From assembly GCA_000004985.1 (NCBI GenBank), contig GG738859.1: DNA of 64,000 nucleotides, one strand, 5' to 3'. The notes below the pieces were generated by a model, which was not told the origin of the DNA, searched no databases, and saw nothing but the letters and a program-made list of their open reading frames with translations. The first letter of the stretch is position 1. Each line of letters starts with the position of its first letter. This stretch comes from Naegleria gruberi. Its lineage: Eukaryota. Shown here one piece after another: positions 3,741 through 64,000 of the stretch. The position numbers and the translations under genes are program-made.

Positions 3741-4856
3741 TTATATAATGTTCAGTGTTTCCAAATCCTTTTGAAGCAAGATATTCTTCACATCATTAAA
3801 GACCATCTTGATATTATTGGTGTTGGTGGCTGTTGTTACATGGCTATAGAGTTGAGTATTCTTAGAGTTAAGTGATTTGAATTTGTTAATGATGAAATCT
3901 CGAGCTGATTCATATTGATGTCCTCCATGGTAATCACTAAAGGCCACTCTCAGATCTGCATTCTTAATCTTTTCTCTGAACAGATCATCCTTGTTGAATA
4001 AGACAATAATTGGAATGGACTTGAAACAATCAAGCTCACAAATTTCTCTAAAAAGAAGTAAGCTTTCGTGTATTCTATTGGTAGTCTTATCTTCCTCTAA
4101 ATTCATATCAAAATCATTAAGTGAGCAAATAAACACGACAGCTGTAGTATCCACAAAGGCATGAATCCACTTTCTTCTCTCCGTCCTTTGACCACCAACA
4201 TCTGTGAATTTCCATCTGTATCCATCGGCATCAAATTCAACCTCAGTAATACCTAGGGTGGTTAATCTGGCTTTGATGATGTCTTCCTGGGTGGCTACAT
4301 AATCTGGTTTGCATATTCTTTCACAATGATCCAGGAAACTGTTGAATTACCAATGATGAAAATTAATTAATATATATTAATTAGAACAATCATTTCTTAA
4401 ATAACATCTTCAAATAACTTACTATTCAATAGTGTCATTGATGGTAAATTCAGATCTTTTGGCCAAACACTGTTTCATGCCTGGATCTTTCCACAGTTTT
4501 GCAATCTTTCCAGCAATATCCTCTCCATAATTCTCGGTTTTTGTTGTTAGGATTTTTTGAATTTCAATAACAGGCTCCTTAGCAATAGACATTATCATTG
4601 AGGCTGTATCTTCATTCTCCTTCATCAACTCAATTCCTAGATCGTGCATTGCTTTGAGTATTGCCGAACATCCCTCAATCAAATTCTCTCTCACCACATT
4701 CGACATGGAAATCTTTTCCTTCTCTGTGAAGGGCTTATTATTAATAATTCTCAATTGTTTAAAGAGTGTACTCTTTCCACTTTGAGCCGTACCTAGCAAA
4801 ATGAGCTTTAACACTCTCTTTGGTTCATCTTCACCTCCACAGTCAAAGCAGCCCAT
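3741..4856 (-). CDS. heterotrimeric G-protein alpha subunit (2 exons, ~343 aa)
   Basis: Exon 1 complement(4423..4856), intron 4339..4422 (84 nt, GTAAGT..AACAG), exon 2 complement(3741..4338). N-terminus MGCFDCGG is an acylation-type start. P-loop GTAQSGKST. Splicing joins ..INDTIE|YFLDHCERICKPDYVATQEDIIKARLTTLGITE (switch I RxxTxGI), then FTDVGGQRTERRKWIHAF, LFNKDDLF (NKxD) and TTATNT (G5). Confidence 0.85.
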
Positions 4857-9749: not shown

Positions 9750-11002
9750 ATGGGTATTTGCGCAACTAAACAACCAGGATCAGTCCAAGCACTGAATGAA
9801 ATTGAAAAGGGAAGACAACAACAAGAAAGAGAAATTAAAGTCTTGCTTTTGGGAGCAGGTGAATCTGGTAAGAGTAAGTAATCATAACGATAATTGATGG
9901 TGGTTGACCATATACAACAATAACAATTTTAATAACTACAAACTACTAATGATTGTTTGTTGAATGAACATGTTTAATAATGGTAATGATGATCATATGA
10001 AAACCTTTTATCTTTGTTTCTTCAACTTTAACTGATTATAAATTTATATATTGATGATTTATAATAGGTACCATTTTCAAGCAAATGAAGATTATCCATC
10101 AAAATGGTTACTCTGAAGAAGAAAGAGAATCATACAAGGAAATTATCTACGGTAACATATTAAAAGCCATGAAGAATCTGGTCCAAGCGACCTTCTCTTT
10201 TAACATTCCTATTGAACAGGAAGAAAACAGAGAACGTGCTGGTAAGATCAATGAACTCGAACAAGAAGCTCTGCTACACGTACATAAATATTGGACAGCT
10301 GAAATTGCTGACGATATTCAATGTTTGTGGTCAGATCCTGGTATTCAAAAAGTTTTTGAGAAACGTAACGAATTCCAATTGGACGATTCTGCTCCATACT
10401 ATTTCACTCACCTTGATAGAATTAAACAAGCTGACTATAAGCCAACTTTAGAAGACGTTGTCAGATCAAGAGTCAAGACAACTGGTATTGTAGAAATGAG
10501 CTTTAAATTAGATGATAGATCTGTAACCTTGATCGACGTTGGTGGCCAAAGAAACGAACGTAAAAAGTGGATTCACTGCTTTGAAGGTGTCACTGCTATT
10601 ATCTTTGTTACATCACTGAGTGAGTATGATCAAAGATGTTATGAAGATGATTCCACCAACCGTATGCATGAATCCTTGCTATTGTTCGACGAAATTTGTA
10701 ACTCTAGATGGTTCATGGATACATCCATTATCTTGTTCTTGAACAAGATGGATTTGTTCAAGGAAAAGATCAAGAGAACTGATCTCAGTCAATTCTTCCA
10801 AGAATATGAAGGTGGTAGAAACTTTGAAACTGCTGCCAGCTTTATTCGTTCTAAATTCGAAGAAAAGAACAGAAATCCAAGACACAAGACCATCTATGCT
10901 CACTTTACATGTGCCACAGATACACAACAATTACAACAGGTCTTTGATGCCATCAAGGATATCATTCTTAACAAGACTTTAAGAGAACAAGGTCTTTTCT
11001 AA
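9750..11002 (+). CDS. heterotrimeric G-protein alpha subunit (2 exons, 352 aa), canonical motifs
   Basis: Exon 1 9750..9873 (MGICATKQ..KVLLLGAGESGK), intron 9874..10067 (GTAAGT..AATAG, 194 nt), exon 2 10068..11002. Motifs: GAGESGKST, RVKTTGIVE, DVGGQRNERKKWIHCFEGVTAIIFV, FLNKMDLF, TCATDT. MGxxxT/S N-terminus suggests N-myristoylation. Confidence 0.9.
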
Positions 11003-11220
11003 ATGTCCTCCCACATTGTCATATTACTCTATTATCAACCCAAAAGAACTTTTCCAATTCTCTTTCCCCACAAACAATCACACATAAAACATCGAATGAA
11101 AATAAGTGTTCAATTTTGTAAATAACATAATACTTCAATTCCAATTAAATAAAAACACATTAAAAACATTATGAAACAAACGAGTGAGCGAACAAACTCA
11201 AATAATGAAAGAACTAAAAA

Positions 11221-12306
11221 ATGGGTGCAAAACAAAGCAGGAATAGTGCAAAGAAAGTAGACGAAAGCTCATCCACAATACAAGAGAAGAAAATACAAGA
11301 AAGAACCGTTATGCTTTTCTCAAAATGCGGAGCAAGTACATTCAGCAGACAACTCACGAATGATAAATTACATGATAAAAATCAAATTGACTATTGTTGT
11401 CATGCTCTGTTATCACGAATGGAAAATTTTGATGAATTTTATTCTATGGATGAAGAATTTGCAAGATTAAAGAATTTCAATCAATTTAATAGAATTCCAA
11501 GACCTAGGGAAATGCTTACAAGAATTTGGAAACATGACGAAATGAGACGAATCTTAATGGAAAAGTATCACAATGTTTGGAGATTTGAAAATTTATCTTT
11601 ATTTATGGAACACTTATTGAATGGAAATTTTGATAATCAATTGGAAAATCCTTTTACATATGCTTCAACAAAAACAACAGGTGTTATAATTAGTGATTTC
11701 ATTCATAGTGATCCAATTATTGGTCAACCCATTAAATACAATCTAGCAGAAATTGGAGGATCTAGAAGTGAATGGAAGAAAGCATTTATCTGTTTTGAAA
11801 ATGTTTATTTTATATTCTTCTTTTGTGGACTTTCGGATTTTCATGATAATCCTAACTATGATTTCGAACATGAATTTGTAAAATTCAATTATGTTTTTAC
11901 CTGCAATAAGTTTCATGAGATTAATCCAAATTGTAGAATAATATTCTTATTTACAAAACCAGACATCTTACAATCAAAGCTTAAAAGGGGCAGTATTTAT
12001 GACATTAAGAAGAATTATGAAATAAGGGAAGAATTGAAACAAATATCAAATGAAAATGAAAGAAATGTCATCAATTCCATAGTATGTGATTTTTTTGCAG
12101 AGCACGAGACGGAGTATCACATTGTAAATTTACTAAATAAGGAGGAGGTTAATCAGGTGAGAGATTTGATTTTGAGTGGAGTGAAATCAAGGTTTCCATT
12201 CATTTCTAAATGTTTGAGAGATGAAGGAAAATGGAGGCAAGTTCTTTTCAGAATATTGAAAGATTCTAAACTTGGTGATATTTCAATAATTGCCAGAGGT
12301 GAATAA
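11221..12306 (+). CDS. divergent G-alpha-like protein with degenerate GTP-binding/hydrolysis motifs (probable pseudo-GTPase), 361 aa, single exon
   Basis: MGAKQS start. Clear G-alpha homology along the full length. The P-loop GxGESGKST is replaced by FSKCGASTFSR. The switch I Arg is lost (ASTKTTGV instead of RVKTTGI). DVGGQ is replaced by EIGGSRSEWKKAFICFENVYFIFF, so the catalytic Gln becomes Ser. NKxD is replaced by TKPD. It lies 218 bp downstream of the canonical G-alpha at 9750..11002, in the same orientation. Confidence 0.75.
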   Translation: MGAKQSRNSAKKVDESSSTIQEKKIQERTVMLFSKCGASTFSRQLTNDKLHDKNQIDYCCHALLSRMENFDEFYSMDEEFARLKNFNQFNRIPRPREMLTRIWKHDEMRRILMEKYHNVWRFENLSLFMEHLLNGNFDNQLENPFTYASTKTTGVIISDFIHSDPIIGQPIKYNLAEIGGSRSEWKKAFICFENVYFIFFFCGLSDFHDNPNYDFEHEFVKFNYVFTCNKFHEINPNCRIIFLFTKPDILQSKLKRGSIYDIKKNYEIREELKQISNENERNVINSIVCDFFAEHETEYHIVNLLNKEEVNQVRDLILSGVKSRFPFISKCLRDEGKWRQVLFRILKDSKLGDISIIARGE

Positions 12307-12364
12307 ATGTATTTAATTGTATTATTTTGAAATATATAGACAGTACTAATAATATGAAGGAGAA

Positions 12365-12437
12365 GCCGACATAGCTCAGTTGGGAGAGCGTAAGACTGAA
12401 GATCTTAAGGTCCCTGGTTCGATCCCTGGTGTCGGCA
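12365..12437 (+). tRNA. tRNA-Phe (GAA)
   Basis: GCCGACATAGCTCAGTTGGGAGAGCGTAAGACTGAAGATCTTAAGGTCCCTGGTTCGATCCCTGGTGTCGGCA. Cloverleaf with 7-bp acceptor stem, GCTC/GAGC D-stem, TAAGA/TCTTA anticodon stem and loop CTGAAGA. T-arm CCTGG/CCTGG has one T:T mismatch (human tRNA-Phe has T:G there). Followed by a TTTT Pol III terminator (12441..). Confidence 0.85.
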
Positions 12438-12663
12438 AATTTTAGATTTTAGTGTCTTCCCTTAACTGCACAATAGCCATTTTCATAACGATGCAATCTC
12501 AAAATAAATTCATGTTAAAAAAATGTTAGAAAAAAATTAATTCTTTCATTTTTGGTAGTTTACCATTTTGGTTAATTTATCTTCAATATTTGCTATTATC
12601 CTTTTTTGTTTTTTTTACTTTTTGGCTACCTTTTCCAAGTTATCTTTAAAAAAAACAAGCAAA

Positions 12664-14883
12664 ATGGTAGAATCACCAATTCTTCAAAAAGATCCTAATG
12701 AACAGCTGTTGCTACAAAGCCAAAAGCCACTTGGTCAACCACAACAGCAACCTTACAATGCCATGCAAATGGAACTCACTCCACAACAGCAAACTCTGGA
12801 AAGTGTTGATAGACAAATGACTCAAGCATTTGGTCAACCATTGCCCCAACAGCAACCCATCCAATTTCAACAGCAACAACCATTAACCAGTAGTAGTGGT
12901 ACCTTGCCAACTGCTAGCAATTTGGAAAGAAGAGAAGAACCTGAAAAACTTATTCAACCTTCTGAAGAATTAATGGAAGAGAAACAAGGTGGTAGTGCTC
13001 TTGGTGTTAGCAACATTTCTGGTTCTAGTAGTGGAGCTACTCAACAAATGTCCATTTCTCCTTCGGTAGAAAAGTCAACCTTGCCACCCTTACCAACTAG
13101 TACCTTGCCTCAATCTGAACCATTTAGCCAGGAACAACATATGGTTAGTCATGATGTGAAAACACCTCACATTCGTGAGTACCCATGTATGAAAGCAGTT
13201 GTTACTTGTAACTATCAACAAGATGAACCAGAACACATGCTTGTTTATGTTGACAAGTATCCAAGACCTATTCGTATGAAATCTGATGAAATTCTTGTCA
13301 GAATGAAATGTGCTAGTGTCAATGATTTGGATTACAAAATCTGTCAAGGTAAAATTCCAGTTGAAATTCAAACTACTCCAATTCATTATCCGCTCATTGT
13401 TGGCGCAGATGGATGTGGTATAATTGAGAAATTAGGTGGAGATCCAACTAATCTCAGAGTAGGTGATTGTGTCTTTGGTTTCACCAATCAATTGGGTACA
13501 TTTGGTGAGTTTGCTATCTTTAAGGAGAGAGAAGTCATGATGAAACCTGACTGGTTGAGTATGGAAATGGCCAGCTGCATTCCATTCAGTGCTCTTGCTG
13601 CAATGAATTGTTTCCTTCTTGTTGATAAGAAGAGAAAGAAGAAACATGGTTTATTGGGTCCTTCCTTGTCAGTAATGAATAGAATTAGCAAATCACCTCG
13701 CTCAGTTGGTCAATCATCAAGCGTAGAAGAATCCTTTGAGAAAAAGGTCATTGAAAGCTCACAATCTCATCAGAAACTAACTCATGAAAATGAACCAATT
13801 AACCTTGAAGTTGTCAACCAACTGTTAAATGGTGACAAATCTGGTTCCATTCTCATCCAAGGAGGTGATACTTATATTGGCTCTTGGTGTATCTTACTAG
13901 CACGTTACTATTTTGGAGCTCAACGTATCTATACAACCATCAGTACAATGGACAATGAAGAATATGTTAGAAAGATGGGTGCTGATGTCATTCTCAATTC
14001 ACACGATGCCAAATATGAAGAAACCATTGAAAAAGATTTGTTGCAATATTGGGAAACATTTTGTTGTGAATTGGATCCTCACAAGAATCAACAAACAATG
14101 CAACCTCCAGCAACCTCTACATTGAATACAAGTACTGGTAGTGAAACTGTAACCCAACAAATGCAACCAACTTCAATGGTCAATCCACATCAAATGCAAA
14201 CTACCCAACAAACCATGCCTAGCTCAAACATGCAACAAACTTCATACACAACCACTACAGAGACAGTTCAAGAACAAGTGGGTTTTCCTTCTTCTTCTCA
14301 ACAAACTCATACAGTTCCAAGTCAAATGGAGTACAAGCCAAGTATGATGCATCAAACAGAACCTTCCAATGTTTCCATGTCTCCTCAACAACCATCTCCA
14401 ACTCATACTCCACTCACTCAATGGCCACATCCTGCCTTTAAATCAAAGAAGGAAATGGAGAAGTGTAAGCTCTTGATTTCAACACTCCAATTATCAATTG
14501 ACACAGTTGGTGGTTATGATAATATGCAAAAGTCATTCAATTTGTTGAATGGAAGTACCAGTCATTACATTACTACCAATCCACCAATTGAGTTGGAACA
14601 AAAGAAGGTCAGTGGAAAGGATGTTTGGAAATTGGTAAGTATGGCAGCTGCAAACAGATTGAAGAGTTTCTTTGCTAATTATCCACATTTCCACCTCTTG
14701 CCTGCTGTTCAATGTGAGAGAGAATTGATGGTAGAGTTGATGAAATGGTTTGAACAAATGGATAGAGATTGGATCCACAAGTTACTTCCATTCAAGACTT
14801 ATCCAATGACTGAAGCTGCTCGTGCTATGGCAGATTGTAAAAAGAATCCTTTCAAATTAGTGATTAACGTATCCAATGAATAA
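12664..14883 (+). CDS. MDR-superfamily (quinone oxidoreductase / Zn-ADH-like) domain protein flanked by Gln/Pro/Thr-rich low-complexity regions (~739 aa)
   Basis: First ATG in the ORF is at 12664 (the track start 12568 is TTG). GroES-like N-domain: CMKAVVTCNYQQDEPEHMLVYVDKYPRPIRMKSDEILVRMKCASVNDLDYKICQGKIPVE..PLIVGADGCGIIEKLGG..LRVGDCVFGF. Rossmann part: SILIQGGDTYIGSWCILLARYYFGAQRIYTTIS. TAA at 14881..14883. Confidence 0.6.
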   Translation: MVESPILQKDPNEQLLLQSQKPLGQPQQQPYNAMQMELTPQQQTLESVDRQMTQAFGQPLPQQQPIQFQQQQPLTSSSGTLPTASNLERREEPEKLIQPSEELMEEKQGGSALGVSNISGSSSGATQQMSISPSVEKSTLPPLPTSTLPQSEPFSQEQHMVSHDVKTPHIREYPCMKAVVTCNYQQDEPEHMLVYVDKYPRPIRMKSDEILVRMKCASVNDLDYKICQGKIPVEIQTTPIHYPLIVGADGCGIIEKLGGDPTNLRVGDCVFGFTNQLGTFGEFAIFKEREVMMKPDWLSMEMASCIPFSALAAMNCFLLVDKKRKKKHGLLGPSLSVMNRISKSPRSVGQSSSVEESFEKKVIESSQSHQKLTHENEPINLEVVNQLLNGDKSGSILIQGGDTYIGSWCILLARYYFGAQRIYTTISTMDNEEYVRKMGADVILNSHDAKYEETIEKDLLQYWETFCCELDPHKNQQTMQPPATSTLNTSTGSETVTQQMQPTSMVNPHQMQTTQQTMPSSNMQQTSYTTTTETVQEQVGFPSSSQQTHTVPSQMEYKPSMMHQTEPSNVSMSPQQPSPTHTPLTQWPHPAFKSKKEMEKCKLLISTLQLSIDTVGGYDNMQKSFNLLNGSTSHYITTNPPIELEQKKVSGKDVWKLVSMAAANRLKSFFANYPHFHLLPAVQCERELMVELMKWFEQMDRDWIHKLLPFKTYPMTEAARAMADCKKNPFKLVINVSNE

Positions 14884-34068: not shown

Positions 34069-34149
34069 CGCAAACTGCAGGATTTGAACCTGCGAGGGTT
34101 TCCCCACGAGATTTCGAGTCTCGCGCCTTAACCTCTCGGCCAAGTTTGC
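34069..34149 (-). tRNA. tRNA-Ser (CGA)
   Basis: Reverse complement: GCAAACTTGGCCGAGAGGTTAAGGCGCGAGACTCGAAATCTCGTGGGGAAACCCTCGCAGGTTCAAATCCTGCAGTTTGCG. It has a 3-bp D-stem, anticodon loop CTCGAAA, a long variable arm, T-stem GCAGG/CCTGC and discriminator G. A TTTT run follows on the minus strand. Confidence 0.85.
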
Positions 34150-59230: not shown

Positions 59231-60953
59231 AATCCAAGTAAATGGATACTTGATTCAATTCTTGTATGATGACAAGACCCAATATCTTCAATGAATCTTT
59301 CTCAGATTGCACCTATCACCAATAGGAATGTGTTCATGCTTCATACTTGTTTGATATTTACAAACTGAATGAGCTGGTGCGTATTCTATATATTGAAAAG
59401 TTACTTTTTGACAGATTGTTATTATTATCAAGTTATTTTCTATTCAGAATATCTAAAATTAATACAATATGTACAATAGTGTGATTAAACGTATCTGGTA
59501 AAGTTATAGGATGATTGGATGTACTTTCACTGAGATGAAGTGTTCACTATGGTATACCTAGGATTGACATTGAACATTTACTGATTAATTTTATGAAAGT
59601 AGTTTGAAATGTTTCTAAACTATTGTAGATGTATTTAATTGATATATAGACTATGTGGTATCAATTCTAGACTTATTATATGTAAAGGTTTTGGAAACGT
59701 GTTGTTTTGATTTGTTTCTTCTGTGGCTCCATGGTCTTTATGATCTGATATAGGGTTATTAAGCGCCGTTTGGGTATTTTGTTGGTTTTTTTAGTAAAGT
59801 TTTAAAAAAAGTATATAGTTCTTATCTAGTTATCGAGTTGTGGTGTAAATGTGTTGTTTTCAAGCTATTCGAAAGTAGTAACGATTTCGATATTCCGTTA
59901 CTTTGCGTCACTTTGCGGACGGACTTATATTCAATCAATTTGGTTGTCATTCATATTGATGCGTAGAATTTTTGAGATTATTTTTGAATGTACGTTATTT
60001 TTATCTACGCATGAATGAAAAGTACAACAATGATCAAGAGGAATTGAGTCATGAGTATGATACTTTCTCAGATTGTTCTACGCATCAAGAGTATTCGATT
60101 CAGGATTCTATTCATATATGATATTTGTTATAAATATATTGAATTGGATGAGATGGAGTGCCATCTTGTTGTTAAAAGTTGAGTCGACATTAAGGTATTC
60201 AGTAAATTGATACCACATGACTAATTAGAGTGATTATATGCCATTATATCAATTTCTTTGAAAACAGACTTGCTTCTGGACCTTTCAGATTTCTAGCCAC
60301 ATTGACAGATCACCATGTACTATCTACTGGATGCATTTCTTGAAATAAAAGTATATATTTTGAATAAAGTCCACTTTATTTGAGATGAACTACATGATAA
60401 TAAAGTTTATTTTGAGATTGTCAACTTTTTCTATAGTGACATCCTTAATTGTCTTAATTGACTCAAAGAGGCCAAGGAGAGATTTCAAATCATAAAATAA
60501 ATGATATTTTCGAGATTTAATAATGATTTACAATCGATTGATATGTATTTTGCTGATTGAGGATGTAGTTCTCTTATTGAATATTGCCCTGTCCTTCAAA
60601 GTCAACCTTGATAAATCACTCCTTACCTTACTATATGATGGAATGTTCACTAGAACGTCTGAAAACTGAAATATATACATTATTAGAGATTTAGAACATG
60701 ATTATATGATTTAATTTGAGAGTGGTAACTTGGCCGAACAACTTGTACATTATAGAGAGAGTTGACTTGGGTTTGGTACCTGGAACCTCTTGGGTTTGGG
60801 AACAGTCTTTTCAACATGAATTCATTGATTATTCTATATCTACTCATCATCTCAAATAAATTAATTATTATTTTTCTGGTCTGGTAATTGTGAAGATACT
60901 GTAGTTGTAAGTTTTACTTTTCATTGTGTATTTATAAAGATAATATATTTCTA

Positions 60954-62838
60954 NNNNNNNNNNNNNNNNNNNNNNNNNNNNNNNNNNNNNNNNNNNNNNN
61001 NNNNNNNNNNNNNNNNNNNNNNNNNNNNNNNNNNNNNNNNNNNNNNNNNNNNNNNNNNNNNNNNNNNNNNNNNNNNNNNNNNNNNNNNNNNNNNNNNNNN
61101 NNNNNNNNNNNNNNNNNNNNNNNNNNNNNNNNNNNNNNNNNNNNNNNNNNNNNNNNNNNNNNNNNNNNNNNNNNNNNNNNNNNNNNNNNNNNNNNNNNNN
61201 NNNNNNNNNNNNNNNNNNNNNNNNNNNNNNNNNNNNNNNNNNNNNNNNNNNNNNNNNNNNNNNNNNNNNNNNNNNNNNNNNNNNNNNNNNNNNNNNNNNN
61301 NNNNNNNNNNNNNNNNNNNNNNNNNNNNNNNNNNNNNNNNNNNNNNNNNNNNNNNNNNNNNNNNNNNNNNNNNNNNNNNNNNNNNNNNNNNNNNNNNNNN
61401 NNNNNNNNNNNNNNNNNNNNNNNNNNNNNNNNNNNNNNNNNNNNNNNNNNNNNNNNNNNNNNNNNNNNNNNNNNNNNNNNNNNNNNNNNNNNNNNNNNNN
61501 NNNNNNNNNNNNNNNNNNNNNNNNNNNNNNNNNNNNNNNNNNNNNNNNNNNNNNNNNNNNNNNNNNNNNNNNNNNNNNNNNNNNNNNNNNNNNNNNNNNN
61601 NNNNNNNNNNNNNNNNNNNNNNNNNNNNNNNNNNNNNNNNNNNNNNNNNNNNNNNNNNNNNNNNNNNNNNNNNNNNNNNNNNNNNNNNNNNNNNNNNNNN
61701 NNNNNNNNNNNNNNNNNNNNNNNNNNNNNNNNNNNNNNNNNNNNNNNNNNNNNNNNNNNNNNNNNNNNNNNNNNNNNNNNNNNNNNNNNNNNNNNNNNNN
61801 NNNNNNNNNNNNNNNNNNNNNNNNNNNNNNNNNNNNNNNNNNNNNNNNNNNNNNNNNNNNNNNNNNNNNNNNNNNNNNNNNNNNNNNNNNNNNNNNNNNN
61901 NNNNNNNNNNNNNNNNNNNNNNNNNNNNNNNNNNNNNNNNNNNNNNNNNNNNNNNNNNNNNNNNNNNNNNNNNNNNNNNNNNNNNNNNNNNNNNNNNNNN
62001 NNNNNNNNNNNNNNNNNNNNNNNNNNNNNNNNNNNNNNNNNNNNNNNNNNNNNNNNNNNNNNNNNNNNNNNNNNNNNNNNNNNNNNNNNNNNNNNNNNNN
62101 NNNNNNNNNNNNNNNNNNNNNNNNNNNNNNNNNNNNNNNNNNNNNNNNNNNNNNNNNNNNNNNNNNNNNNNNNNNNNNNNNNNNNNNNNNNNNNNNNNNN
62201 NNNNNNNNNNNNNNNNNNNNNNNNNNNNNNNNNNNNNNNNNNNNNNNNNNNNNNNNNNNNNNNNNNNNNNNNNNNNNNNNNNNNNNNNNNNNNNNNNNNN
62301 NNNNNNNNNNNNNNNNNNNNNNNNNNNNNNNNNNNNNNNNNNNNNNNNNNNNNNNNNNNNNNNNNNNNNNNNNNNNNNNNNNNNNNNNNNNNNNNNNNNN
62401 NNNNNNNNNNNNNNNNNNNNNNNNNNNNNNNNNNNNNNNNNNNNNNNNNNNNNNNNNNNNNNNNNNNNNNNNNNNNNNNNNNNNNNNNNNNNNNNNNNNN
62501 NNNNNNNNNNNNNNNNNNNNNNNNNNNNNNNNNNNNNNNNNNNNNNNNNNNNNNNNNNNNNNNNNNNNNNNNNNNNNNNNNNNNNNNNNNNNNNNNNNNN
62601 NNNNNNNNNNNNNNNNNNNNNNNNNNNNNNNNNNNNNNNNNNNNNNNNNNNNNNNNNNNNNNNNNNNNNNNNNNNNNNNNNNNNNNNNNNNNNNNNNNNN
62701 NNNNNNNNNNNNNNNNNNNNNNNNNNNNNNNNNNNNNNNNNNNNNNNNNNNNNNNNNNNNNNNNNNNNNNNNNNNNNNNNNNNNNNNNNNNNNNNNNNNN
62801 NNNNNNNNNNNNNNNNNNNNNNNNNNNNNNNNNNNNNN
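60954..62838. other. assembly gap (1,885 N)
   Basis: Uninterrupted run of n. The 641-668-aa all-X ORFs in the track across it are artefacts. Confidence 0.99.
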
Positions 62839-63649
62839 ATTGTGAACACAATGGTATCAATAGTTATATGATTCATGATAGTTTAAAATTGAGTTGGTCA
62901 TCTAAGGATAGGTCATTAAGGTTTGAATGAATTGATATGAAATTCAATACCAATTATTGAAATACCATGACTAACTGATCTATATATGATGCTATAATTG
63001 AAAGATTTTAAAATTAATATGATTTGATTATCTTGATATTCATTATTCCCATGATTACACTCCTGACATGTTGAATGATATCAAATTGTCATGAAACTGA
63101 TACAGTAGTGTTCATTCACCTTTTGTAAGGTACTGTATCAATTTCATAATGATCTGTAAAGTAGATGTCATTGTCACATCCCTGTAGGTATCAAGTGGAT
63201 CTGCCATGTACCATGTATGATATGGATGAATATCAAAATGATATTACTGTATTTCATTATCATGTGTAGATGTATTGGAAGTGAATTGAAGTGGTATAGA
63301 TTTCTATCTTCAATGTTAGTATAGGTCAGTTGACAAGTTGAATAGCAAATATCCTGAAATGATACCAAAGTATTTGAAATTGATATATATTGTTATTAAC
63401 ATGATTTATAAGGTGATATATTGATTTGAAATGAATTTGAAATGTTTTCATTGATATTTTAATTGTCTAATCTATTATATGAAATTAACTTATATAAGAC
63501 ATGATAATGATGTAATATTATGTTATATTATGATTATATATTCAATTTGGAGTATATTGATATATAATATATTGATTTATAATGAGTATTTATTGAGATA
63601 ATTAATTAAGATGAATAAAAGTCAAAATGTTGGGTCTGACCTTAGTCGT

Positions 63650-64000
63650 GGGTTTGGGTTTGGGTTTGGGTTTGGGTTTGGGTTTGGGTTTGGGTTTGGG
63701 TTTGGGTTTGGGTTTGGGTTTGGGTTTGGGTTTGGGTTTGGGTTTGGGTTTGGGTTTGGGTTTGGGTTTGGGTTTGGGTTTGGGTTTGGGTTTGGGTTTG
63801 GGTTTGGGTTTGGGTTTGGGTTTGGGTTTGGGTTTGGGTTTGGGTTTGGGTTTGGGTTTGGGTTTGGGTTTGGGTTTGGGTTTGGGTTTGGGTTTGGGTT
63901 TGGGTTTGGGTTTGGGTTTGGGTTTGGGTTTGGGTTTGGGTTTGGGTTTGGGTTTGGGTTTGGGTTTGGGTTTGGGTTCGGGTTTGGGTTTGGGTTTGGA
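63650..64000 (+). repeat. telomeric repeat (GGGTTT)n, ~58 units, running to the window end (chromosome terminus; G-rich strand 5'->3' toward the end)
   Basis: Perfect hexamer array from 63650. One variant unit GGGTTC at ~63974..63979. Preceded by AT-rich unique sequence and the satellite. Confidence 0.9.

What the first reader, a model, noticed from the sequence alone, without database searches (positions are those of the whole stretch)
11221..12306. G-alpha paralog that has lost P-loop, arginine finger and catalytic glutamine (pseudo-GTPase)
Full-length G-alpha fold with an N-terminal MGAKQS acylation motif. GAGESGKST becomes KCGASTFSR, RVKTTGI becomes STKTTGV, DVGGQR becomes EIGGSR, and NKxD becomes TKPD. 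Such a protein is unlikely to bind or hydrolyse GTP normally. It could act as a constitutive scaffold or a dominant competitor for G-beta-gamma, receptors or RGS proteins. It lies 218 bp downstream of a canonical G-alpha, suggesting tandem duplication followed by functional decay or neofunctionalisation, yet the ORF is fully open.
Basis: seen in the sequence. Interest (0 to 1): 0.65.

Follow-up and report, generated by a model that had tools for sequence, protein, structure and literature searches.

The report
Selected dead G-alpha in Naegleria
This Naegleria gruberi gene encodes an intact, evolutionarily maintained G-protein alpha subunit look-alike that has lost almost everything needed to bind or split GTP. 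It belongs to a previously undescribed amoeba-specific clade of such "dead" G-alpha proteins, with plant XLG proteins as the nearest known parallel.

Summary
Window 11221-12306 (+) is an open 361-codon ORF, identical to N. gruberi XP_002679038.1 ("predicted protein"). It matches Pfam G-alpha above threshold and models as a two-domain G-alpha (pLDDT 82; all top PDB matches are G-alpha). Walker A Lys, Arg finger and catalytic Gln are gone; only 7 of 25 Gαi1 nucleotide/Mg contacts survive, against 23/25 in the neighbour.

- It is not a decaying recent tandem copy. It is about 23% identical to its neighbour and never groups with it (0/200 bootstraps).
- It nests in a heterolobosean-only clade (Naegleria, Willaertia) marked by TKPD, YHIVN, a short α5 and a conserved ~45-aa C-terminal tail (FISxCL…LxDIxI).
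- Arg finger and Gln are lost clade-wide. The P-loop Lys and switch II Trp211 are additionally lost in this gene and its 70% paralog.
- Purifying selection is clear: neutral drift to 70% identity left 0/2000 ORFs open, and there is a synonymous excess (P≈0.005).

Best reading: a myristoylated, probably nucleotide-free pseudo-Gα acting as a nucleotide-independent binding module. An RGS-type partner fits better than Gβγ, but this is inferred. Expression and binding are untested.

The parts
11221..12306 (+). Intron-less ORF of 361 codons plus stop, encoding the degenerate G-alpha-like protein (N. gruberi XP_002679038.1 / NAEGRDRAFT_65833 / UniProt D2VAE6).
   Evidence: Pfam G-alpha 62.3 bits. AF2 pLDDT 82.3. 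Foldseek top 50 are all G-alpha.
11221..11241 (+). N-terminal MGAKQSR, an N-myristoylation-type signal (Gly2, Ser6, basic residue at 7) with no Cys3.
   Evidence: Read from the sequence. Gly2 is present in 75% and Ser6 in 70% of clade members. Myristoylation itself is inferred from the consensus, not tested.
11308..11340 (+). b1, degenerate P-loop and start of a1: V-M-L-F-S-K-C-G-A-S-T. Walker A Gly40 is lost, Lys46 is Ala38, and Ser47/Thr48 are kept.
   Evidence: Alignments. Model secondary structure: b1 26-33, a1 38-46. G37-A38-S39-T40 is invariant in both paralogs.
11359..11640 (+). All-helical domain (six helices), about 27 residues shorter than in Gαi1. Residues 91-120 are the best-conserved stretch between the two paralogs (93%).
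11659..11685 (+). Switch I, YASTKTTGV. The Arg finger (Arg178) is Ser149. Lys180, Thr181, Thr182 and Gly183 are kept.
11749..11799 (+). G3/switch II, EIGGSRSEWKKAFICFE. Changes: Asp200->Glu, Gln204->Ser, Arg208->Trp, Trp211->Ala, His213->Ile.
   Evidence: Arg208 and Trp211 are each kept in 78% of the clade but not in this gene.
11953..11964 (+). G4 motif TKPD in place of NKxD. This is a clade hallmark; Lys and Asp are retained.
   Evidence: Thr 84%, Lys 95%, Pro 74%, Asp 100% in the clade.
11992..12096 (+). Clade-specific aG-a4 insertion and a4 (…REELKQISNENERNVINSIVCDFF). This region is more conserved in the clade than in canonical G-alpha.
12115..12129 (+). G5 position: YHIVN in place of TCATD. 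This is a clade hallmark; His300 is invariant.
12133..12174 (+). Short a5 (model helix 307-318) in place of the long receptor-inserting a5 of canonical G-alpha.
12175..12303 (+). Clade-specific C-terminal tail, SGVKSRFPFISKCL…KLGDISIIARGE. Ile328, Ser329, Leu332 and Asp353 are nearly invariant in the clade. No Pfam match.
   Evidence: pLDDT is about 86 for 321-330 and about 50 for 341-361.
9750..11002 (+). Context: the adjacent canonical G-alpha gene. Exon 1 is 9750-9873, the GT..AG intron is 9874-10067, and exon 2 is 10068-11002. All G1-G5 motifs are intact.
   Evidence: 459.6 bits; 23/25 nucleotide contacts.
3741..4856 (-). Context: a third, canonical G-alpha gene. Exon 1 is 4856-4423, the intron is 4422-4339, and exon 2 is 4338-3741. 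Motifs: GTAQSGKST, DVGGQR, NKDD.

Best explanation
The ORF encodes a functional, selectively maintained pseudo-GTPase of the G-alpha fold.

Shown:
- It belongs to a heterolobosean-specific clade of G-alpha-like proteins (Naegleria gruberi, N. lovaniensis, Willaertia magna and environmental relatives).
- Almost all clade members have lost the Arg finger and catalytic Gln, so the clade is GTPase-dead.
- In the clade, G4 and G5 are replaced by TKPD and YHIVN, and the receptor-coupling end of a5 is replaced by a conserved ~45-aa tail.
- Within that clade this gene and its 70%-identical paralog have additionally lost the Walker A Gly and Lys, Asp200 and switch II Trp211.

Inferred:
- The protein is most likely nucleotide-free (class i pseudoGTPase behaviour).
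- It is tethered to membranes by N-myristoylation.
- It works as a nucleotide-independent binding module rather than a switch. Constraint has moved from the nucleotide pocket to the a4/b6/a5/tail face, which probably docks a clade-specific partner.
- The retained switch I/II 'KTTG…RSE.KK' surface could still bind RGS-domain proteins, as plant XLG2 does in its empty state. The identity of the partner is the weakest step.
For: - Identity and fold.
- Motif loss: 7/25 Gαi1 nucleotide/Mg contacts kept against 23/25 in the neighbour; K46A, R178S, Q204S, D200E.
- Clade: shared TKPD/YHIVN/FISxCL…LxDIxI hallmarks in about 20 cluster representatives. Sources are Naegleria and Willaertia only. Monophyly 157/200, with this gene plus its paralog at 200/200.
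- Dispensability of the P-loop Lys: it was lost independently in P0008 (GTADSGTST), which suggests nucleotide binding is dispensable in the clade.
- Selection: open-frame P=4.6e-13. After neutral drift to 70% identity, 0/2000 simulated ORFs stayed open. Synonymous excess P=4.7e-3, with dN/dS 0.41 over codons 1-140 against the paralog-like L001.
- Shift of constraint: in the clade, conservation of P-loop/switch I/switch II is 0.52/0.37/0.53 against 0.81/0.60/0.82 in canonical G-alpha. For a4 and b6-G5 it is 0.48 and 0.54 against 0.35 and 0.38. The tail is also slightly higher (0.48 against 0.39), but few canonical columns align there.
- RGS-contact residues are 8/12 identical, including T182/G183.
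- Precedent: Arabidopsis XLG2 also has K46->Ala and no Arg finger. It binds GTPγS 100-1000x more weakly, yet binds RGS1 and Gβγ without nucleotide (bioRxiv 10.1101/795088).
Against: - No biochemical or expression data exist for this protein, and no paper mentions it.
- Codon bias is the weakest in the neighbourhood (GC3 0.246; AAC 1/29 against 11/15 in the neighbour), which is compatible with low expression.
- Ser47, Thr48, Thr181, Gly203, Lys270 and Asp272 are kept, so weak or non-canonical nucleotide binding cannot be excluded. XLG2 still binds GTPγS at about 2 µM.
- The dN/dS estimate rests on only 62 substitutions in the N-terminal 140 codons, because DNA for the paralog could not be retrieved.
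- RGS binding normally recognises a nucleotide-dependent switch conformation. Retention of KTTG could be inherited rather than selected.
- I could not inspect the model coordinates, so where the tail docks is unknown.
- No ortholog was found in N. fowleri or N. lovaniensis.
Confidence: 0.55

Rival explanations
1. It is a GTP-locked rather than an empty protein. It still binds guanine nucleotide in a non-canonical way and, lacking Arg and Gln, stays permanently GTP-bound. That would make it a constitutively 'on' G-alpha-like signal (class ii/iii pseudoGTPase behaviour, like Rnd/RhoH).
For: - Ser47, Thr48, Thr181, Gly202/203, Lys270 and Asp272 are retained.
- A Lys (K35) sits inside the P-loop of this copy.
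- Most other clade members keep GxxxxGK[ST] and so probably bind nucleotide.
- XLG2 with K46A still binds GTPγS at about 2 µM.
Against: - Walker A Lys and the first Gly are both gone, Asp200->Glu, G5 is replaced, and only 7/25 contacts are kept.
- K35 is not conserved in the paralog (PGSGAST).
- The helical-domain ribose contacts D150/S151 are changed.
- Switch II Arg208/Trp211, which report the active conformation, are replaced.
Confidence: 0.2
2. It is a Gβγ-sequestering decoy. [quoted passage not shown] This is the first reader's main suggestion.
For: - Precedent in XLG2.
- Lys210, Cys214, Phe215 and Glu216 of the switch II Gβ interface are kept, 7/14 overall.
- The N-terminal segment has a length similar to canonical aN.
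Against: - Trp211->Ala (Val in the paralog), His213->Ile (Ala in the paralog) and Glu186->Ile.
- Trp211 is kept in 78% of the clade but specifically lost here.
- The N-terminal 25 residues are Ser-rich, predicted non-helical and have pLDDT of about 56.
Confidence: 0.12
3. It is a young tandem duplicate of the neighbouring canonical G-alpha that is decaying, meaning an unexpressed or nearly neutral gene whose frame happens to be still open.
For: - It is adjacent to and on the same strand as a canonical G-alpha, 218 bp away.
- It has the weakest codon bias locally.
- No expression evidence was found.
Against: - It is 23-24% identical to the neighbour and groups with it in 0/200 bootstraps.
- It shares derived hallmarks with a clade present in other genera.
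- A paralog at 70% identity is also fully open, whereas neutral simulations gave 0/2000 open ORFs (mean 8 stops).
- There is a synonymous excess, P about 0.005.
- All paralog indels are in frame.
Confidence: 0.03

Closest known systems
Plant extra-large G proteins (Arabidopsis XLG2), described as a 'decoy Gα' (Lou et al., bioRxiv 10.1101/795088)
   Same: - A G-alpha-homologous domain with the same Lys46->Ala change, no Arg finger, and altered G3 and G5.
- Proposed to act without nucleotide while keeping protein-protein interactions.
   Different: - XLGs carry a large N-terminal Cys-rich/NLS extension and are plant-specific.
- This protein has no N-terminal extension. It starts with a myristoylation-type MGxxxS 29 aa before b1, has a distinctive C-terminal tail, keeps GG in G3, and has lost the switch II Trp.
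- It arose inside a heterolobosean clade, so the resemblance is probably convergent. XLG was not included in my tree, so this is not tested.
Canonical Naegleria G-alpha subunits (the 13 in N. fowleri, Bosch et al. 2022, PMC9283941; the two neighbours in this window)
   Same: Same Pfam family and two-domain fold, N-terminal lipidation signal, same genome, and physically adjacent.
   Different: - The canonical subunits keep G1-G5, bind and hydrolyse GTP, and are reported to have a universally conserved switch II Trp.
- This protein keeps 7/25 nucleotide contacts, lacks that Trp and has a different C-terminus.
Class i pseudoGTPases (for example the AAGAB psGD, PMC12490416; the p190RhoGAP pG domains, PMC5593906)
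   Same: A GTPase fold with G motifs lost, predicted to neither bind nor hydrolyse nucleotide, and used as a protein-interaction module through non-canonical surfaces.
   Different: - Those are small-GTPase-like domains embedded in larger proteins.
- This is a stand-alone G-alpha-type protein with a helical domain.
- Nucleotide binding has not been measured here.
Lineage-specific G-alpha diversification of Naegleria gruberi noted by de Mendoza et al. 2014 (PMC3971589)
   Same: The same gene set. The expansion of G-alpha homologs in N. gruberi was seen in their phylogeny.
   Different: The passages I searched in that paper say nothing about catalytic-motif loss, the TKPD/YHIVN/tail hallmarks or selection.

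Membership tests
Heterotrimeric G-protein alpha subunit (Pfam PF00503, homology and fold) | Significant match to the family profile | tested here: met
   62.3 bits against a gathering cut-off of 48.8, E=5.8e-17, aa 58-315. PDB phmmer hits are all G-alpha.
Heterotrimeric G-protein alpha subunit (Pfam PF00503, homology and fold) | Ras-like domain with an inserted all-helical domain | tested here: met
   AF2 pLDDT 82.3 with six helices between a1 and switch I. Foldseek aligns about 330 columns to Gi/Gt/Gq/Gs structures. The helical domain is about 27 aa shorter than in Gαi1.
Functional G-alpha GTPase switch | G1 Walker A GxxxxGK[ST] | tested here: not met
   The sequence is L-F-S-K-C-G-A-S-T: Gly40 is lost and Lys46->Ala.
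Functional G-alpha GTPase switch | Switch I arginine finger (Arg178 in Gαi1) and Mg-binding Thr181 | tested here: not met
   Arg178->Ser149. Thr181 is kept.
Functional G-alpha GTPase switch | G3 DxxGQ with catalytic Gln204 | tested here: not met
   The sequence is E-I-G-G-S: Asp200->Glu and Gln204->Ser.
Functional G-alpha GTPase switch | G4 NKxD and G5 TCAT guanine-recognition motifs | tested here: not met
   G4 is TKPD (Lys and Asp kept, Asn->Thr). G5 is YHIVN instead of TCATD.
Functional G-alpha GTPase switch | Long C-terminal a5 helix ending in the receptor-inserting tail | tested here: not met
   The model's a5 spans only 307-318 and is followed by a non-homologous 43-aa tail.
Functional G-alpha GTPase switch | Measured GTP binding/hydrolysis and Gβγ binding | not testable with these tools
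   Biochemistry is required. Sequence proxies: 7/25 nucleotide contacts and 7/14 Gβ switch-interface residues.
Class i pseudoGTPase (GTPase fold with no nucleotide binding and no hydrolysis; definition as used in PMC12490416) | GTPase fold with catalytic motifs lost | tested here: met
Class i pseudoGTPase (GTPase fold with no nucleotide binding and no hydrolysis; definition as used in PMC12490416) | Experimentally no nucleotide binding | not testable with these tools
   Predicted from K46A, loss of Gly40, D200E and G5 replacement. XLG2 with K46A retains µM binding, so this remains open.
Plant XLG family | N-terminal Cys-rich/NLS extension fused to the G-alpha-like domain | tested here: not met
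   The protein begins MGAKQS only 29 aa before b1, with no upstream exon needed or present.
Plant XLG family | Phylogenetic membership in the plant XLG lineage | not tested
   No XLG sequence was included in the tree. The protein nests in a heterolobosean clade.
Heterolobosean 'TKPD/YHIVN/tail' G-alpha-like clade (defined here) | [TSV]K[PVA]D at G4, [YF]H[IV][VI]N at G5, and a C-terminal FISxCL…LxDIxI tail | tested here: met
   All three are present: TKPD at 245-248, YHIVN at 299-303, and FISKCL…LGDISI at 327-356.
Heterolobosean 'TKPD/YHIVN/tail' G-alpha-like clade (defined here) | Groups with the clade in phylogeny | tested here: met
   NJ with 200 bootstraps: clade 157/200, and with the adjacent canonical gene 0/200. 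This is NJ only; no ML tree was made.

The most novel reading that the evidence does not exclude
Heterolobosean amoebae evolved, independently of plant XLGs, a whole family of G-alpha-derived proteins that signal without a GTPase cycle.
- The receptor-facing side (a4/b6/a5 plus a new conserved tail) was rebuilt into a constitutive docking module for a lineage-specific partner, for example the 7TM-RGS proteins that are abundant in Naegleria.
- The nucleotide pocket became dispensable step by step: Arg and Gln were lost first, and the P-loop Lys was then lost at least twice.
- The window gene would be the end point of this path: a fully nucleotide-free, myristoylated pseudo-Gα.
Probability: 0.3. 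Interest if true: 0.65.

Novelty: new variant of a known kind. Interest (0 to 1): 0.5.

Why it matters
G-alpha subunits are the textbook nucleotide switch. The only well-studied case of a G-alpha that works without nucleotide is the plant XLG family, and its mechanism is still debated.

A second, independent lineage would be a natural comparative system. It contains graded intermediates, from Willaertia P0036 (P-loop and Arg finger kept) to this gene (everything lost). That gradient could show which G-alpha surfaces carry function once the GTPase cycle is abandoned.

It also bears on how the unusually large G-protein/RGS repertoire of Naegleria is wired. Naegleria fowleri is a lethal pathogen. 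Finally, it flags about 20 "hypothetical" proteins for re-annotation as pseudo-Gα.

Tried and rejected
- The look-up of encoding contigs for the paralog P0003 had no record. Full-length paralog dN/dS was therefore impossible, and only the P0003-like 5' 140 codons of L001 could be used.
- The search for homologous proteins with the clade alignment returned only 4 proteins, and with N. lovaniensis P0009 returned only itself. The word index misses these divergent relatives, so presence or absence in N. fowleri is unresolved.
- The metagenome scan with the subfamily alignment gave 443 pattern hits, none confirmed.
- The first AF2 run on a 7-sequence alignment gave pLDDT 44 and was discarded.
- The Anantharaman et al. 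2011 survey of G-alpha diversity is not held, so I cannot exclude that it already mentions inactive Naegleria G-alphas.
- Accession and project-ID literature searches were empty.
- I considered and rejected a missing upstream exon supplying a P-loop. The b1/P-loop/a1 segment is colinear with the clade members, and the N-terminus is homologous from Met1.
- I considered whether Nf Gα6 of Bosch et al., which is not activated by GTP, is an ortholog. It is activated by AlF4 and has a long insertion, so it is a different kind of protein.
- The flanking ORFs gave no RGS or Gβ clue.
Full report
**What is there**

The window is Naegleria gruberi nuclear DNA. The ORF at 11221-12306 (+) is 100% identical to the "predicted protein" XP_002679038.1 / NAEGRDRAFT_65833. 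It is a continuous 361-codon frame. At local base composition the chance of such a frame is 4.6e-13, and the five other frames carry 18-47 stops.

Pfam G-alpha (PF00503) is matched above its gathering score (62.3 against 48.8 bits), but only over residues 58-315. An AlphaFold2 model from a 7-sequence alignment was useless (pLDDT 44). A second model from a 124-sequence alignment was confident (pLDDT 82.3, pTM 0.81). Its 50 best PDB matches are all heterotrimeric G-alpha subunits aligned over about 330 columns. So the protein has the full two-domain G-alpha fold, with a helical domain about 27 residues shorter than in Gαi1.

**Motif check**

I used a human Gαi1 reference, verified against the PDB, and L-INS-i alignments.

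- Arg178->Ser149 (YASTKTTGV).
- Asp200->Glu and Gln204->Ser (EIGGSR).
- NKxD->TKPD.

The correct correspondence is L32-F-S-K-C-G-A38-S-T40 on G40-A-G-E-S-G-K46-S-T48. This fits the model's b1 (26-33) and a1 (38-46) boundaries. Walker A has therefore lost both the first Gly and the Lys (Lys46->Ala) but keeps Ser47/Thr48.

Overall, 7 of 25 Gαi1 nucleotide/Mg contact positions are identical, against 23/25 in the gene next door.

**Surroundings**

- Upstream, and 218 bp away, lies a canonical two-exon G-alpha (9750-9873 and 10068-11002; 459.6 bits).
- A third canonical G-alpha lies at 3741-4856 on the minus strand.
- A tRNA-Phe gene sits 59 bp after the stop.
- The flanking ORFs show no RGS, Gβ or other signalling domain.

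**It is not a decayed tandem copy**

The protein is only 23-24% identical to its neighbour. An exhaustive HMMER search of 1.84 billion representatives found one close cluster. That cluster is a 70%-identical paralog on another N. gruberi scaffold (P0003, NAEGRDRAFT_50404). Scores then dropped from 769 to 95 bits.

The next hits are not ordinary G-alphas. About 20 representatives share three derived features with the window protein:
- [TSV]K[PVA]D at G4.
- [YF]H[IV][VI]N at G5.
- A conserved C-terminal extension, FISxCL…LxDIxI, after a shortened a5.

All named members come from Naegleria gruberi, N. lovaniensis or Willaertia magna and are annotated only as hypothetical. The rest come from metagenomes.

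In a bootstrapped NJ tree:
- The clade is recovered in 157/200 replicates.
- The window protein pairs with P0003 in 200/200.
- It groups with the adjacent canonical gene in 0/200.

**Two layers of degeneration**

*Clade-wide.* The Arg finger is absent in all members but P0036, and Gln204 in all but P0004. G4, G5 and the C-terminus are remodelled in all. Most full-length members nevertheless keep GxxxxGK[ST], so they probably still bind nucleotide but cannot hydrolyse it efficiently (inference).

*Specific to this gene and its paralog.* These two have also lost Gly40, Lys46, Asp200, Arg208 and Trp211.

The P-loop Lys was also lost independently in P0008 (Lys->Thr), which lies in a different subclade. 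This suggests nucleotide binding is dispensable for whatever the clade does.

Pfam scores show the gradient: P0036 256 bits, P0004 172, P0008 163, P0009 86, this protein 62, and P0015 38.

**Selection**

An ENA contig (L001) has 5' flank and first ~380 nt that follow P0003. Its remainder, including the 3' flank, follows the window. That gives a codon comparison between the paralogs for codons 1-140:
- dS 0.34, dN 0.14, ω 0.41.
- 20 synonymous against 42 non-synonymous changes, where neutrality predicts 18% synonymous (binomial P=4.7e-3).

Simulated neutral drift of the gene to the observed 70% protein identity produced a mean of 8 stop codons, and no open frame in 2000 runs. Paralog indels are all in frame, and identity peaks at residues 91-120 (93%) and 301-330 (87%).

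The gene is therefore maintained as a protein. Codon bias is weak (GC3 0.246), so expression may be low. I found no expression data.

**Where the constraint lies**

Mean consensus frequency per element, clade against canonical G-alpha:

| Element | Clade | Canonical |
|---|---|---|
| P-loop | 0.52 | 0.81 |
| Switch I | 0.37 | 0.60 |
| Switch II | 0.53 | 0.82 |
| aG-a4 insert | 0.48 | 0.40 |
| a4 | 0.48 | 0.35 |
| b6/G5 | 0.54 | 0.38 |

The tail is also slightly more conserved in the clade (0.48 against 0.39), but few canonical columns align there. These more-conserved elements lie on the face that, in canonical G-alpha, meets the receptor (established structural knowledge). I could not inspect coordinates to see how the tail packs.

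Identity to Gαi1 at partner surfaces in the window protein:
- Effector/GoLoco groove: 1/13.
- Gβ switch interface: 7/14, with Trp211->Ala and His213->Ile.
- RGS4 contact set: 8/12. K180, T181, T182, G183, R205, S206, E207 and K210 are kept.

The N-terminal 25 residues are not predicted helical.

**Mechanism**

*Shown:* a selected, G-alpha-fold protein without catalytic residues or a Walker A lysine, with an N-terminal MGxxxS signal and a clade-specific C-terminal face.

*Inferred:* it is myristoylated and membrane-bound, essentially nucleotide-free, and acts through protein-protein contacts rather than a GTP cycle. The a4/b6/a5/tail face probably docks a lineage-specific partner, and the preserved switch I/II surface may engage RGS-domain proteins.

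The closest precedent is Arabidopsis XLG2. It has the same Lys46->Ala change and no Arg finger, binds GTPγS 100-1000 times more weakly, and still binds RGS1 and Gβγ in the empty state.

Rivals, in order of likelihood:
- A GTP-locked form (0.2).
- An XLG-like Gβγ sink (0.12), disfavoured by the specific loss of Trp211.
- A silent, decaying copy (0.03).

**Comparison with what is known, and novelty**

- Bosch et al. 2022 characterised N. fowleri G-alphas and report the switch II Trp as universally conserved among the 13 they found. In the passages I read there is no mention of a degenerate class.
- De Mendoza et al. 2014 noted a lineage-specific G-alpha diversification in N. gruberi without comment on motif loss.
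- In the pseudoGTPase papers I searched, the examples found were small-GTPase-like domains.
- The 2011 Anantharaman/Aravind survey could not be read.

On this evidence the gene is a new variant of a known kind. It is a G-alpha-type pseudoGTPase, probably convergent with plant XLGs, and part of an undescribed heterolobosean clade. I rate interest as moderate (0.5). The sequence-level case is solid, but function and expression are untested, and the general concept has a precedent.

Noticed in passing
window 63649-63999 (and 60000-63600): About 58 tandem copies of TGGGTT (equivalent to TTTGGG), 99% perfect, with the G-rich strand running 5'->3' to the very end of the window. They are preceded by about 3.6 kb of 14-19% GC DNA with strong GC skew. 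This looks like a telomere plus subtelomere, which would place the G-alpha gene trio about 52 kb from a chromosome end.
   Followed up: partly
L001 (ENA ERZ929261, 1226 bp) against window 11216-12340: This environmental contig encodes a mosaic of the two paralogs. Its 5' flank and nt 1-380 follow NAEGRDRAFT_50404, and the rest plus the 3' flank is nearly identical to the window gene; 62 of 67 differences fall in the first 380 nt. The paralogs share too short an identical stretch at the junction for an obvious k=127 assembly chimera. It may therefore record gene conversion or recombination between the paralogs in another N. gruberi strain.
   Followed up: partly
window 3741-4856 (-): A third G-alpha gene: canonical, two exons with an 84-nt GT..AG intron, starting MGCFDCGG, with GTAQSGKST and NKDD. 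Three G-alpha homologs therefore lie within about 8.6 kb, yet they are only 23-36% identical and fall in different branches of the tree.
   Followed up: partly
window 12365-12437 (+) and 34069-34149 (-): tRNA-Phe(GAA) lies only 59 bp downstream of the degenerate ORF's stop codon. A tRNA-Ser(CGA) lies further along.
   Followed up: no
window 12568-14883 (+): A 771-aa ORF has ADH_N/ADH_zinc_N (medium-chain dehydrogenase-like) domains embedded in long Gln/Ser/Thr-rich low-complexity regions. The listed TTG start is probably not the real start; an ATG follows at about 12665.
   Followed up: no
P0012 (ENA metagenome clade member): The predicted protein has an internal MGGKLST myristoylation-type motif at residue 22. 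This suggests the deposited gene model starts too far upstream, which fits the MGxxxS start being a conserved feature of the clade.
   Followed up: no
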